A stretch of DNA of 63,808 nucleotides, filler included, from Collodictyon triciliatum (Eukaryota), in assembly GCA_043381765.1 (NCBI GenBank). It is 49 parts of 49 records of this genome, joined end to end, with 100 filler letters (N's around TTAATTAATTAA, not from the genome) between each part and the next. Parts side by side here need not be neighbours in the genome. Positions count along the whole stretch, not along the records: positions 45,715 to 46,916 come from JBHJMP010011872.1; 48 more parts are not named here. The stretch is one strand, 5' to 3'. Within the stretch, counting starts at the first letter, position 1. Each line of letters opens with the position of its first letter. The position numbers were made by a program, and so were the translations under genes. Of this stretch, positions 45,715-46,916 are shown in pieces. The notes beneath the pieces were generated by a model that had not been told where the DNA came from, did not search any database, and saw only the letters and a program-made list of their open reading frames with translations.

Positions 45715-45947
45715 CCGTCTTCTTCAGAATAGTTTTTTTGCTGTCCTAGCAATTCATCGTGTAGTTCTTCTTCATCCATCTCGGGGTATGCTTTGCTCAG
45801 TCGCTGCATAGTCACACATCGAAGTTTGTAATTTGAGTACTGAATAATTCCCTCATAATCCTTGGTCCAAACTTTTAGTTTACGGGTATTCGAGTCAAAT
45901 TCAATTTGGCAATCGTGGCTTTCAACGTAGTAAGCAGTGTAAATCAT
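45715..45947 (-). CDS. Hypothetical intronless protein in the putative viral contig (cut by contig end)
   Basis: ATG ORF MIYTAYYVESHDCQIEFDSNTRKLKVW.., co-oriented and about 70 bp downstream of the small ORF. Confidence 0.55.
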
Positions 45948-46019
45948 TCTACAAAATTTACAATTAGTATATGCGCTTGGTTTTGATATGTGGTATCAAA
46001 TATATACAACATTTCAATT

Positions 46020-46175
46020 TTATACCGACGAATGTAATAAATCCTTTTCACTTTTAAATTCAACTGTCCCACCACAGCAGCTAGACCTTTTCAAATGATC
46101 GACTGTGTATTTCCACAACCTTTCTAAAACTAACACACAAGTCATAAGTAATGAGATTACGGTAATTGGTTCCAT
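46020..46175 (-). CDS. 51-aa small membrane protein with CC motif (putative virion-associated)
   Basis: MEPITVISLLMTCVLVLERLWKYTVDHLKRSSCCGGTVEFKSEKDLLHSSV*. It starts 16 nt after the capsid-like stop and is below the ORF-track cut-off. Confidence 0.7.
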   Translation of the reverse strand: MEPITVISLLMTCVLVLERLWKYTVDHLKRSSCCGGTVEFKSEKDLLHSSV

Positions 46176-46191
46176 TACTTATATAAATATT

Positions 46192-46916
46192 TTATTCTAC
46201 TCTGAATGTCTGCTGGTTAGACTGGATTTCTAGCACGGCGTCATACAATGATGCAACAATAATATTATATGGCCCATCAGTGGCACCAATGGGTGCATTG
46301 AAATTTAATCTTAATGACATTAATCCAGATCCTGACGACTGTATGTCTGTTCCGACGATTTCCCCCTCGACCGCATCGAGTACTTTGCGGAGATTGAAGC
46401 CTATTAGGAATTCACTGGCAGGTCCTTGGCAACATTGTCCATAATATCTATTAATTAAATCTGAATTAAAAGTCGCGTTTTGACCACCGGCAGCATTAGT
46501 AACAGTAAAACCAGTGTGATTAGCATTTGCTACAATACTACAAGTAATAGCATTATTGGTAGCACCATTAGCAGCAACTTCTGGTTTAGTTCCTGTTATA
46601 ACACCCCCATTCACTGCCGAGCCATTATCAGACAATTGAACCACTGGAGCATTTACAGTTACTGCGGGAGCAGCATTTTGTTGAGTAGGATTTTGTGCAG
46701 GTACAGTGCACGAAATTCCAGTCTCCAAATTCTGTAATTGATTCAAATGATTGCCTACAAAATTTCTACCATCAAACCCAAACGGCCCAGTGTATTCACT
46801 TCGCACGTGAGTGAGACCAAGCGCCTTTTGCAACTCCAAGAATGCCTGGGGCGCATTTCCTTCACAGTCCATTGGCTGTAAGGGGTAGTAGAATGAGCCG
46901 AGTTGAAGCTGGGCAT
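46192..46916 (-). CDS. Putative double-jelly-roll major capsid protein of a Polinton-like virus, C-terminal part
   Basis: Frame is open from the contig edge: AQLQLGSFYYPLQPMD..AFLELQKALG..FLIGFNLRK..IVGTDI..LRLNF..IIVASLYDAVLEI*. It is intronless and rich in beta-strand-like, N/G/T-rich segments. Confidence 0.68.

What the first reader, a model, noticed from the sequence alone, without database searches (positions are those of the whole stretch)
45715..46916. Fragment of a Polinton-like virus or virophage-like element: capsid gene, small CC membrane protein and an unknown ORF
Seen: unlike the host-gene contigs, this one is intronless, lacks microsatellites and has three co-oriented ORFs with gaps of 16 and about 70 bp. 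Known: Polintons and Polinton-like viruses (PLVs) encode double-jelly-roll capsids and are often endogenised in protists. Inference: the pattern QLQLG..YYP.QP, A+.EL.KALG, F.IG..L, G.D, L.L.F, YD..LEI matches the second jelly roll of PLV capsids, here with a long N/A/T/G-rich loop insertion. This could be an undescribed virus lineage in this host.
Basis: partly seen in the sequence, partly recalled or inferred. Interest (0 to 1): 0.8.

Follow-up and report, generated by a model that had tools for sequence, protein, structure and literature searches.

The report
Polinton-like virus capsid gene fragment
This 1.2-kb contig is a real piece of a small freshwater DNA virus of the Polinton-like kind, holding the back half of its shell-protein gene and a tiny, highly conserved membrane-protein gene; it is a fairly ordinary find, and the data cannot show whether it is inserted in the host genome.

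Summary
45715-46916 is one 1202-nt contig of a fragmented eukaryotic assembly. It is 92% coding, with three co-oriented minus-strand ORFs separated by 16 and 72 nt.

- **ORF A** (240 codons, 5'-truncated) is the C-terminal part of a ~510-600-aa protein known only from environmental assemblies. A 72%-identical full-length homologue folds as a vertical double jelly-roll major capsid protein (Z 23.2 faustovirus, 22.4 PBCV-1, 17.4 Sputnik). The N/A/T/G-rich stretch is a variable tower insertion in the second jelly roll.
- **ORF B** (51 aa, hydrophobic N-terminus, invariant Cys-Cys) follows the capsid gene in every relative that extends far enough and is under strong purifying selection. It is a real gene, probably a membrane-anchored virion or assembly protein.
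- **ORF C** is shared only with the closest relative; its function is unknown.

More distant relatives carry a structurally confirmed penton protein and an A32-type packaging ATPase. That is the Polinton-like virus morphogenetic module. No Pfam family of virophage or giant-virus capsids was hit.

The closest relative is a metagenome contig, 89.5% nt identical. Integration, host identity and novelty of the lineage could not be tested. Verdict: new member of a known kind, moderate-low interest.

The parts
46192..46914 (-). ORF A: the 3' part of a double jelly-roll major capsid protein gene. It has 240 codons plus a TAA stop and corresponds to residues ~321-552 of a 552-aa homologue. The 5' end is cut by the contig end.
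   Evidence: Translation. Homologues at E 1e-94 to 1e-38. AF2 model of homologue P0007 plus fold matches. dN/dS 0-0.06 in the core against L001.
46435..46728 (-). Variable tower insertion inside the second jelly roll (fragment residues ~63-160, 52% N/A/T/G).
   Evidence: Composition. dN/dS 0.85 here against 0-0.06 in the flanks. In the P0007 model the matching region is beta-rich, with pLDDT about 85-92 over roughly residues 380-470. Relatives in sequencing runs replace or skip parts of it (joints 46433>46574, 46432>46741, 46672>46768).
46176..46191 (-). AT-rich 16-nt spacer between the capsid stop codon and the ORF B start codon.
   Evidence: The same 16-nt length occurs in the window and in 6 of 10 relatives; the others have 17, 18, 20 and 150 nt. 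Alignment.
46020..46175 (-). ORF B: a 51-aa protein with a hydrophobic N-terminal segment, a basic juxtamembrane stretch and an invariant Cys-Cys.
   Evidence: Found directly after the capsid gene in 9 loci in full and 1 in part, at 61-98% identity. dN/dS 0.027 (8 synonymous, 1 non-synonymous change). Kyte-Doolittle mean 2.49 over residues 3-17. No Pfam or PHROG family.
45948..46019 (-). 72-nt intergenic region, conserved only with the closest relative L001.
   Evidence: Alignment.
45715..45947 (-). ORF C: the first 77 codons of an acidic-tailed protein (102 aa in L001). Function unknown; the 3' end is cut by the contig end.
   Evidence: 95% identical ORF in L001 only, 1 of 11 loci. No similarity to the ORFs at the same position in L003, L007 and L011. 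No Pfam family; only a weak PHROG match at E 0.086. No usable Atlas hit.

Best explanation
The contig is a fragment of the genome of a small double-stranded DNA virus of the Polinton-like virus (PLV) type.

**ORF A** encodes the C-terminal part of the major capsid protein, a vertical double jelly-roll protein. Such proteins trimerise into the pseudo-hexagonal capsomers of an icosahedral shell. The N/A/T/G-rich segment is an insertion in the second jelly roll that forms part of the outward-facing tower. It evolves fast, while the barrel core is frozen.

**ORF B** sits 16 nt downstream and is probably co-expressed with the capsid gene. It is a 51-aa protein with a membrane anchor. I infer that it sits in the membrane on or under which the capsid assembles. 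Its conserved juxtamembrane motif and Cys-Cys pair, a plausible acylation site, would face the capsid or the genome. Odds given that it is a real gene: about 55% virion-membrane or capsid-anchor protein, about 20% assembly factor that is not packaged, about 10% viroporin or exit protein.

**ORF C** is a strain-specific accessory gene.

The rest of the virus is inferred from relatives: a penton protein, a fibre-like protein, a very large coiled-coil/proline-rich protein, an A32-type packaging ATPase, and a genome of about 17 kb.

Shown here: the fold, gene order, conservation and selection. Inferred: trimer and shell formation, membrane location, co-expression.

The physical state is unresolved. 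I put about 35% on an integrated copy in the assembled organism and about 65% on a free, episomal or co-sampled virus.
For: **Family.**
- ORF A has 3 near-length and 33 longer homologues (428-597 aa). Identity is 39-72% at full fragment coverage for 32 of the 33 longer ones; the other is 83% over 59%.
- In a tree of the C-terminal region it nests inside this clade, next to L001.

**Fold.**
- AF2 model of P0007 with a 32-sequence alignment: pLDDT 74.1, pTM 0.75.
- Foldseek PDB gives 243 matches at E<=0.001, led by the SGIV capsid protein (2e-12), faustovirus, Sputnik (2e-11), D13 and PBCV-1.
- BFVD gives 173 matches at E<=0.001, including virophage, Tetraselmis viridis virus S1, adintovirus and giant-virus capsid proteins.
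- VIA-align: Z 23.2 faustovirus (355 aligned, rmsd 3.3, model residues 18-542), 22.4 PBCV-1, 21.5 ASFV p72, 17.4 Sputnik, 15.5 PRD1, 15.1 mavirus.
- ESM Atlas: the nearest clusters are viral, most often Preplasmiviricota or Nucleocytoviricota.

**Context in relatives.**
- L010 carries Pox_A32 at E 1.5e-9 (38.1 bits, cut-off 22.8), with Walker A/B-like motifs visible.
- The 267-aa ORF model (pLDDT 78.6) matches penton proteins. All 6 chains at Z>=8 are pentons: two PBCV-1 entries at 13.3 and 12.4, mavirus 10.7, EhV-201 10.5, Sputnik 9.4, fowl adenovirus 8.2.
- Synteny: penton, fibre-like protein, large coiled-coil protein, 114-119-aa ORF, capsid, ORF B.
- The longest contigs listed for homologues cluster at 16.4-17.2 kb.

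**Selection against L001** (89.5% nt identity over the whole contig).
- Capsid core: dN/dS 0 and 0.056. Tower: 0.85. ORF B: 0.027.

**Not prokaryotic, not phage.**
- No relative in 185,579 prokaryote species genomes or in 50,697 phage records.

**Published definition.**
Against: - The fold was predicted for a homologue, not for the window's own truncated protein. Parts of that model are poor (residues 341-367 and 495-504 below pLDDT 50).
- The ATPase and penton were seen only in distant members of the clade: L010 (capsid 38% identical to the fragment, 47% to P0007) and L009. The closest relative, L001, is only 2.2 kb.
- No sequence-level link to a named PLV was obtained. Pfam, PHROGs and PDB sequence searches are blank. 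None of the 79 distant relatives scanned, of the 150 listed, hits a capsid Pfam family.
- No replication or integration gene was recognised in the 11.7 of 16.4 kb of L010 that could be read.
- IMG/VR holds no relative by pattern scan.
- No run holds more than 23% of the contig's sampled words, so coverage and host junctions could not be examined.
- The membrane role of ORF B rests on hydrophobicity, position and conservation only.
Confidence: 0.85

Rival explanations
1. The fragment is an endogenous viral element: a copy of this virus integrated in the chromosome of the assembled eukaryote. This refines the best explanation rather than excluding it.
For: PLVs commonly expand as integrated copies in protist genomes (abstracts of PMC12220804 and PMC10120064). 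Multi-copy, slightly divergent insertions would break a short-read assembly into short contigs like this one. GC is 39.7%, inside the window's contig range of 29-55%.
Against: There is no host-like flank, repeat or junction on the contig; both ends lie inside viral ORFs. No other contig of the window matches the relatives (0 of the other 48). All ORFs are intact and under purifying selection relative to an environmental relative. Near-identical pieces occur in freshwater and estuary metagenomes. All of this fits a circulating virus or a co-sampled microbe's virus equally well.
Confidence: 0.35
2. It belongs to one of the small-genome groups allied to giant viruses, not to the core PLV class. 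These are the Nucleocytoviricota-like 'PLVs' such as the Zephyr/VC40 or Mriya-like groups of the 2026 Bellas and Sommaruga preprint.
For: The best structural Z-scores are to giant-virus capsid proteins (faustovirus 23.2, PBCV-1 22.4, ASFV 21.5), above Sputnik at 17.4 and mavirus at 15.1. The preprint describes 15-20-kb genomes lacking detectable replication genes (VC40; section 6 read). That resembles the ~17-kb contigs here, in which no replication gene was recognised.
Against: The preprint says VC40 capsids are detected by NCLDV and Yaravirus HMMs at about 1e-25. Here no member hits Pfam Capsid_NCLDV or Capsid_N even at E<=10: the fragment plus 6 full-length proteins and 0 of 79 distant relatives. 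The marker genes Tlr6F, methyltransferase and Mriya48 were not seen in L010. PLV capsids in general are reported to resemble PBCV-1 most closely (PMC7805220 passage).
Confidence: 0.07
3. It is a true virophage (Maveriviricetes/Lavidaviridae) or a Polinton/Maverick-type self-synthesising element.
For: These share the same fold and the same capsid, penton and ATPase module. Sputnik and mavirus capsid and penton proteins are among the structural matches. One Atlas look-alike cluster carries Sputnik_MCP_1st and MCP_V20_C on 29% of its members.
Against: No hit to the virophage capsid Pfam families at E<=10. No cysteine protease, pPolB or RVE integrase was recognised in any of the 11 loci, which include 11.7 kb of L010. 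Structural Z-scores are lower for virophages than for giant-virus capsids.
Confidence: 0.05
4. It is a tail-less double jelly-roll virus of a bacterium or archaeon, co-assembled with the eukaryote.
For: PRD1, PR772 and STIV capsid proteins also match, at Z 14-15.6.
Against: No relative in one genome each of 185,579 prokaryote species or in 50,697 phage records. The capsid is ~510-600 aa with large towers, and the match to eukaryotic-virus capsids is 6-8 Z units better. The ATPase matches Pox_A32.
Confidence: 0.02

Closest known systems
Polinton-like viruses (PLVs; class Aquintoviricetes as used in PMC12220804 and the 2026 Bellas and Sommaruga preprint), for example Tetraselmis viridis virus S1
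   Same: A double jelly-roll major capsid protein of about 500-600 aa. A single jelly-roll penton protein and an A32-type packaging ATPase in relatives. No maturation protease or integrase recognised. Contigs of about 17 kb, within the 14-40 kb range quoted for PLVs. Aquatic metagenome distribution. Tetraselmis viridis virus S1 proteins are among the BFVD matches for both the capsid and the penton model.
   Different: No sequence-level match to any named PLV protein or profile was available here. The clade has its own signature genes: a 51-aa Cys-Cys membrane protein fixed right after the capsid gene, a 114-119-aa ORF right before it, and a 467 to >1393-aa coiled-coil/proline-rich protein. The window holds only 1.2 kb of the genome.
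Major capsid proteins of giant viruses (PBCV-1 Vp54, faustovirus, ASFV p72, iridovirus)
   Same: The best structural matches: Z 19.7-23.2 over model residues 18-545, with both jelly rolls and tower insertions.
   Different: Only 8-10% identity in the structural alignments. No Pfam Capsid_NCLDV or Capsid_N hit. Relatives lie on ~17-kb contigs, not on giant-virus genomes.
Virophage capsid proteins (Sputnik V20, mavirus MCP)
   Same: The same fold, size class and penton partner (Z 17.4 and 15.1 for the capsid; 9.4 and 10.7 for the penton).
   Different: No hit to Sputnik_MCP_1st or MCP_V20_C. No cysteine protease seen in relatives.
Small membrane proteins encoded beside the capsid gene in membrane-containing double jelly-roll viruses (for example PRD1 P22, recalled from memory and not tested)
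   Same: A very small protein with one hydrophobic segment, encoded directly after the major capsid gene.
   Different: No sequence or structural comparison was made. Whether PLV virions of this clade contain a membrane is unknown.

Membership tests
[quoted passage not shown] | Two eight-stranded jelly-roll barrels in one chain | tested here: met
   AF2 model of P0007, a 72%-identical homologue that covers the whole fragment. Z 23.2-14 to solved DJR capsid proteins over model residues 18-545. The window itself holds only the C-terminal strands of barrel 2 plus the tower.
[quoted passage not shown] | Forms trimeric pseudo-hexameric capsomers of an icosahedral shell | not testable with these tools
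   A trimer of 3 x 552 residues exceeds the complex tool's size limit. No particle data.
Polinton-like viruses | Double jelly-roll major capsid protein | tested here: met
Polinton-like viruses | Single jelly-roll minor capsid (penton) protein | tested here: met
   Met in relatives only (L010 2959-3762, L009 284-1081). The model's 6 best solved matches are all penton proteins at Z 8.2-13.3, with BFVD hits. Not present on the window's 1.2 kb.
Polinton-like viruses | A32-type (FtsK-HerA) DNA-packaging ATPase | tested here: met
   Met in relative L010 only: Pox_A32 at E 1.5e-9, 38.1 bits against a cut-off of 22.8. Not on the window's contig.
Polinton-like viruses | No maturation protease and no RVE integrase; genome of roughly 14-40 kb | tested here: inconclusive
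   Neither gene was recognised in any of the 11 loci. However, 4.6 kb of the L010 contig and the ~17-kb contigs of closer relatives could not be read. Contig sizes of 16.4-17.2 kb recur, but completeness (TIRs or a circle) was not tested.
Virophages (Maveriviricetes / Lavidaviridae) | Sputnik V20-type capsid protein (Pfam Sputnik_MCP_1st / MCP_V20_C) | tested here: not met
   No Pfam family at E<=10 for the fragment or for 6 full-length homologues.
Virophages (Maveriviricetes / Lavidaviridae) | Cysteine maturation protease; replication dependent on a giant virus | tested here: inconclusive
   No protease was recognised in the partial contexts. Dependence on a giant virus cannot be tested here.
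Polintons / Mavericks / adintoviruses | Protein-primed family B DNA polymerase plus RVE integrase | tested here: inconclusive
   Not recognised in the ORFs scanned, but no complete genome was available.
Giant-virus (Nucleocytoviricota) major capsid proteins | Match to Pfam Capsid_NCLDV (PF04451) / Capsid_N (PF16903) | tested here: not met
   No hit at E<=10 for 7 family members, and 0 of 79 distant relatives at E<=0.001.

The most novel reading that the evidence does not exclude
The capsid clade is about 36 proteins among 5.8 billion, forming 4 clusters at 50% identity and separated by a long branch from its next relatives. It could be a family-level, not yet described lineage of ~17-kb freshwater Polinton-like viruses with three lineage markers:
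- a 51-aa Cys-Cys membrane protein locked 16 nt behind the capsid gene;
- a small ORF locked in front of the capsid gene;
- a giant coiled-coil/proline-rich protein.

If this contig is truly integrated in the assembled eukaryote, it would give the first host assignment for a lineage otherwise known only from metagenomes.
Probability: 0.2. Interest if true: 0.5.

Novelty: new member of a known kind. Interest (0 to 1): 0.3.

Why it matters
Polinton-like viruses are among the most abundant DNA viruses of aquatic microbial eukaryotes, but most are known only from metagenomes and have no known host. A PLV fragment inside an organism's assembly is a possible host link, and the reading is now on firm structural ground.

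The conserved 51-aa membrane protein next to the capsid gene is a concrete, testable candidate for how such capsids are tied to a membrane.

The fragment is only 1.2 kb with no host junction. Close relatives are already in public assemblies, and PLV insertions in protist genomes are well documented. The finding therefore adds a member, not a principle.

Tried and rejected
- **Sequence-only annotation.** ORFs A, B and C gave no Pfam family at E<=10. PHROGs gave only chance-level hits at E 0.4 and 0.086. PDB by sequence gave one chance hit at E 1, and a profile of the family gave none.
- **IMG/VR.** Two scans, with a single protein and with the alignment, found no relative.
- **Own genome.** Not held, so the search for ATPase, polymerase, penton or protease elsewhere in the assembly could not be run. 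Within the window, none of the other 48 contigs matches the relatives.
- **Search of the L010 record** for a polymerase family: record not held.
- **Sequencing runs.**
  - No listed holder has more than 0.23 of the contig's words, and no RNA holder is listed. So read depth against host contigs, host junctions and expression could not be assessed.
  - Four runs were laid. They hold short contig pieces of relatives: 85-99% identical, the longest 612 nt with 29 differences. These are not this sequence.
  - Parts without cover there mean nothing.
- **Complex prediction** of the capsid protein (L002, 542 aa) with ORF B: no answer, score 0.00, alignments not used by the tool. No evidence either way.
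- **ORF C.** No similarity to the ORFs in the same position in L003, L007 and L011 (best E 0.61). The Atlas gave no usable feature hit, and its structure rows are TM <=0.5 on a pTM 0.30 model.
- **L010 1-624 (-).** It shows a D-x-D and a G-F-H motif reminiscent of archaeo-eukaryotic primases, but Pfam (E<=10) and PDB sequence searches gave nothing relevant. Not claimed.
- **Earlier findings of this scan.** None for this genome or sequence. The word search returned only unrelated jelly-roll viruses.
- **Literature.** Two searches were run. I read sections 6 and 7 of the 2026 preprint, section 9 and the outline of PMC12220804, and passages of PMC7805220 and PMC6260650. None lets this clade be mapped to a named PLV group.
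Full report
**What the window is.** The 63.8-kb window is not one locus. It is 49 contigs of about 1.2 kb, joined by N44-TTAATTAATTAA-N44 spacers. Other contigs look like a repeat-rich eukaryotic genome. Of the 49, 36 carry tandem repeats and 29 end in one. A WD40 gene fragment lies at 40907-41551 and a RING finger at 47119-47517. The finding is exactly one contig, 45715-46916.

**The observation.** On the minus strand there are three co-oriented ORFs:
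- ORF A, 46914..46195: 240 codons, open at the contig end, TAA stop.
- ORF B, 46175..46023: 51 codons, 16 nt after ORF A.
- ORF C, 45947..45717: 77 codons, 72 nt after ORF B, running off the other end.

The contig has no tandem repeat, though 12 other contigs have none either. GC is 39.7%, within the range of the other contigs. The loop is 52% N/A/T/G against 28% elsewhere in the fragment.

**ORF A is the C-terminal part of a double jelly-roll major capsid protein.**
- Sequence libraries say nothing: Pfam, PHROGs and PDB sequences are blank.
- The large protein collection holds 3 homologues of similar length and 33 longer ones (428-597 aa). Identity to the fragment is 39-72% with full coverage for 32 of the 33. 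All are 'hypothetical' or unnamed and come from environmental assemblies.
- I aligned 32 of them (A1) and folded the 552-aa P0007, which is 72% identical to the fragment. The fragment corresponds to about residues 321-552.
- The model has pLDDT 74.1 and pTM 0.75, with weak stretches at 341-367 and 495-504.
- Foldseek against the PDB gives 243 matches at E<=0.001, headed by the Singapore grouper iridovirus capsid protein (2e-12), faustovirus, Sputnik (2e-11), vaccinia D13 and PBCV-1.
- Against predicted viral structures it gives 173 matches, including virophage, adintovirus, giant-virus and Tetraselmis viridis virus S1 proteins.
- VIA-align gives Z 23.2 to the faustovirus capsid protein (355 residues, rmsd 3.3, model 18-542). 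Further scores: PBCV-1 22.4, ASFV p72 21.5, iridovirus 19.7, D13 19.1, Sputnik 17.4, PRD1 15.5, mavirus 15.1, STIV 14.8, adenovirus hexon 12.3.
- No cellular or tailed-phage protein appears among these matches. The ESM Atlas look-alikes are viral clusters, most often Preplasmiviricota or Nucleocytoviricota.

**The loop is a variable tower.** In the model, the region matching the N/A/T/G-rich stretch is beta-rich and confidently predicted, with pLDDT about 85-92. Against the closest relative, dN/dS is 0.85 in this stretch. In the flanking barrel strands it is 0 (0 non-synonymous, 5 synonymous changes) and 0.056. Relatives in sequencing runs replace or skip parts of it (table 5). This is what an outward-facing insertion in the second jelly roll would show.

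**ORF B is a real, conserved gene.**
- A metagenome scan with the alignment returned 11 related loci.
- ORF B's homologue lies directly after the capsid stop in 9 of them in full, at 61-98% identity. L008 has only the first 12 codons before its contig ends. L004 ends inside the capsid gene.
- ORF B is better conserved than the capsid C-terminus it follows. Seventeen columns are invariant, including an E-R-x-W-K-Y-T stretch after the hydrophobic segment, the Cys-Cys pair and an E-F.
- Against L001 it shows 8 synonymous changes and 1 non-synonymous change, dN/dS 0.027.
- The spacer is 16 nt in the window and in 6 of 10 loci.
- Residues 3-17 have a Kyte-Doolittle mean of 2.49.
- I infer a membrane-anchored protein co-expressed with the capsid protein, most likely a virion-membrane or capsid-anchoring component. 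This is inference from position, conservation and hydrophobicity.

**ORF C.** It is shared only with L001, where it is 95% identical and 102 aa long. The ORFs at the same position in L003, L007 and L011 are unrelated. With 2 synonymous and 5 non-synonymous changes, selection cannot be judged. Pfam, PHROGs and the Atlas give nothing usable. It is a strain-level accessory gene of unknown function.

**What kind of virus.**
- Relatives show a fixed order: penton-like ORF, fibre-like ORF, a 467 to >1393-aa coiled-coil/proline-rich ORF on the other strand, a 114-119-aa ORF, capsid, ORF B.
- L010 (11.7 kb held of a 16.4-kb contig) also encodes a 240-aa protein matching Pox_A32. The match is E 1.5e-9 at 38.1 bits against a cut-off of 22.8. 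Walker A/B-like motifs are visible.
- The 267-aa ORF has 21 homologues. Its model (pLDDT 78.6) matches penton proteins only at the top of a search of 48,161 solved chains. The scores are PBCV-1 Z 13.3 and 12.4, mavirus 10.7, EhV-201 10.5, Sputnik 9.4 and fowl adenovirus penton base 8.2. The next unrelated rows are at Z 6 or below.
- The penton model's BFVD matches include Tetraselmis viridis virus S1, mavirus and Qinghai Lake virophage minor capsid proteins, and adomavirus LO5.
- Capsid, penton and A32 ATPase without a recognised protease or integrase is the published description of Polinton-like viruses (passage in PMC6260650; PMC12220804 section 9).
- The longest contigs listed for family members cluster at 16.4-17.2 kb, inside the PLV size range. 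Completeness was not tested.

**What it is not.**
- Neither the fragment nor six full-length members hit the virophage or giant-virus capsid Pfam families, even at E<=10.
- A profile search of 1.84 billion representatives finds 360 relatives at E<=0.001, 65 at <=1e-10 and 12 at <=1e-30.
- Of the 150 listed I scanned 79. None hits a capsid Pfam family; two unrelated families were each matched once, near E 1e-3.
- No relative exists in one genome each of 185,579 prokaryote species or in 50,697 phage records.
- A strict virophage, a giant-virus fragment and a prokaryotic virus are therefore unlikely.
- I cannot decide whether the clade sits in the core PLV class or in one of the giant-virus-allied small-genome groups of the 2026 preprint (sections 6 and 7). 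That needs their HMM set.

**Where it lives, and whether it is integrated.**
- The contig is 89.5% identical in nucleotides over its full length to metagenome contig L001. In a tree of the C-terminal region it nests inside the environmental clade, next to L001 and P0016.
- No public run indexed here holds more than 23% of its sampled words. The 20 partial holders, from 12 studies, are mostly freshwater, lake, estuary and subsurface metagenomes, plus two runs labelled with organisms.
- In the four runs laid, pieces of 85-99% identity cover parts of the contig.
- So close relatives circulate in fresh water. The source reads of this assembly were not available.
- Both contig ends fall inside viral ORFs with no host-like sequence. 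None of the other 48 contigs of the window is related.
- Integration, copy number and host therefore remain open. I put integration in the assembled organism at about 35%.

**Novelty and score.**
- The reading is right, and the fragment belongs to a known kind of virus.
- The clade is small, unnamed and absent from IMG/VR by my scans, and it has distinctive conserved small genes.
- Its members are already in public assemblies, and extensive PLV surveys exist. Their supplementary tables and HMMs I could not see, so I do not claim the clade is undescribed.
- It is a new member of a known kind. Interest 0.3.

Noticed in passing
window 1-63808: The window is a chain of 49 contigs of 1196-1211 nt, in roughly descending length. 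Each is separated from the next by 44 N, TTAATTAATTAA and 44 N. Neighbouring segments are therefore not physically linked.
   Followed up: yes
window 43110-44310: A whole contig is one tandem array of a 54-nt unit (22 copies, 85% matches, GC 55%). It is open in several frames. It looks like a satellite or a repeat-protein gene.
   Followed up: no
window 47119-47531 (-): A RING-finger ORF (zf-C3HC4_3, E 3e-6) preceded by 3.5 copies of a 75-nt repeat that encodes a proline- and glycine-rich 25-aa unit.
   Followed up: partly
L010 6026-9592 (-), L002 2-4180 (-), L005 118-3165 (-), L009 2240-3643 (-): Next to the capsid gene, on the opposite strand, every long relative encodes a very large protein (467 to >1393 aa). 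It has a Q/A/N-rich coiled-coil part and, in L010, hundreds of residues of Pro/Ala/Gly repeats. It has no Pfam family and takes up about a fifth of a ~17-kb genome.
   Followed up: partly
L010 9626-9970, L002 4217-4576, L004 365-724, L006 620-979, L008 1157-1501, L009 3677-4021 (all +): A conserved 114-119-aa ORF with a G-R-F-L-T/I motif near its N-terminus sits directly upstream of the capsid gene in all six relatives that extend that far. No family found.
   Followed up: no
L010 1-624 (-): The first 208 residues of an ORF that runs off the held stretch show D-x-D and G-F-H-I-Y motifs reminiscent of archaeo-eukaryotic primases. Pfam and PDB sequence searches gave nothing relevant.
   Followed up: partly
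L009 6075-6268 (+): Start of a GIY-YIG-type nuclease ORF (Pfam GIY-YIG E 5.7e-4, below the curated cut-off) downstream of the capsid module.
   Followed up: partly
window 46058 (run X20, table 7): One contig piece of a relative, in a run guessed to be RNA, ends in a run of 16 A on the plus strand. That is antisense to the three ORFs. It may be an artefact or an antisense or read-through transcript end.
   Followed up: no
L010 3782-5995 (+), L009 1131-2210 (+): A Ser/Thr/Asn/Gly-rich, beta-looking ORF follows the penton gene. It recalls the phage-like fibre proteins reported for cryptophyte PLVs (a section heading in PMC12220804). It was not folded here.
   Followed up: no
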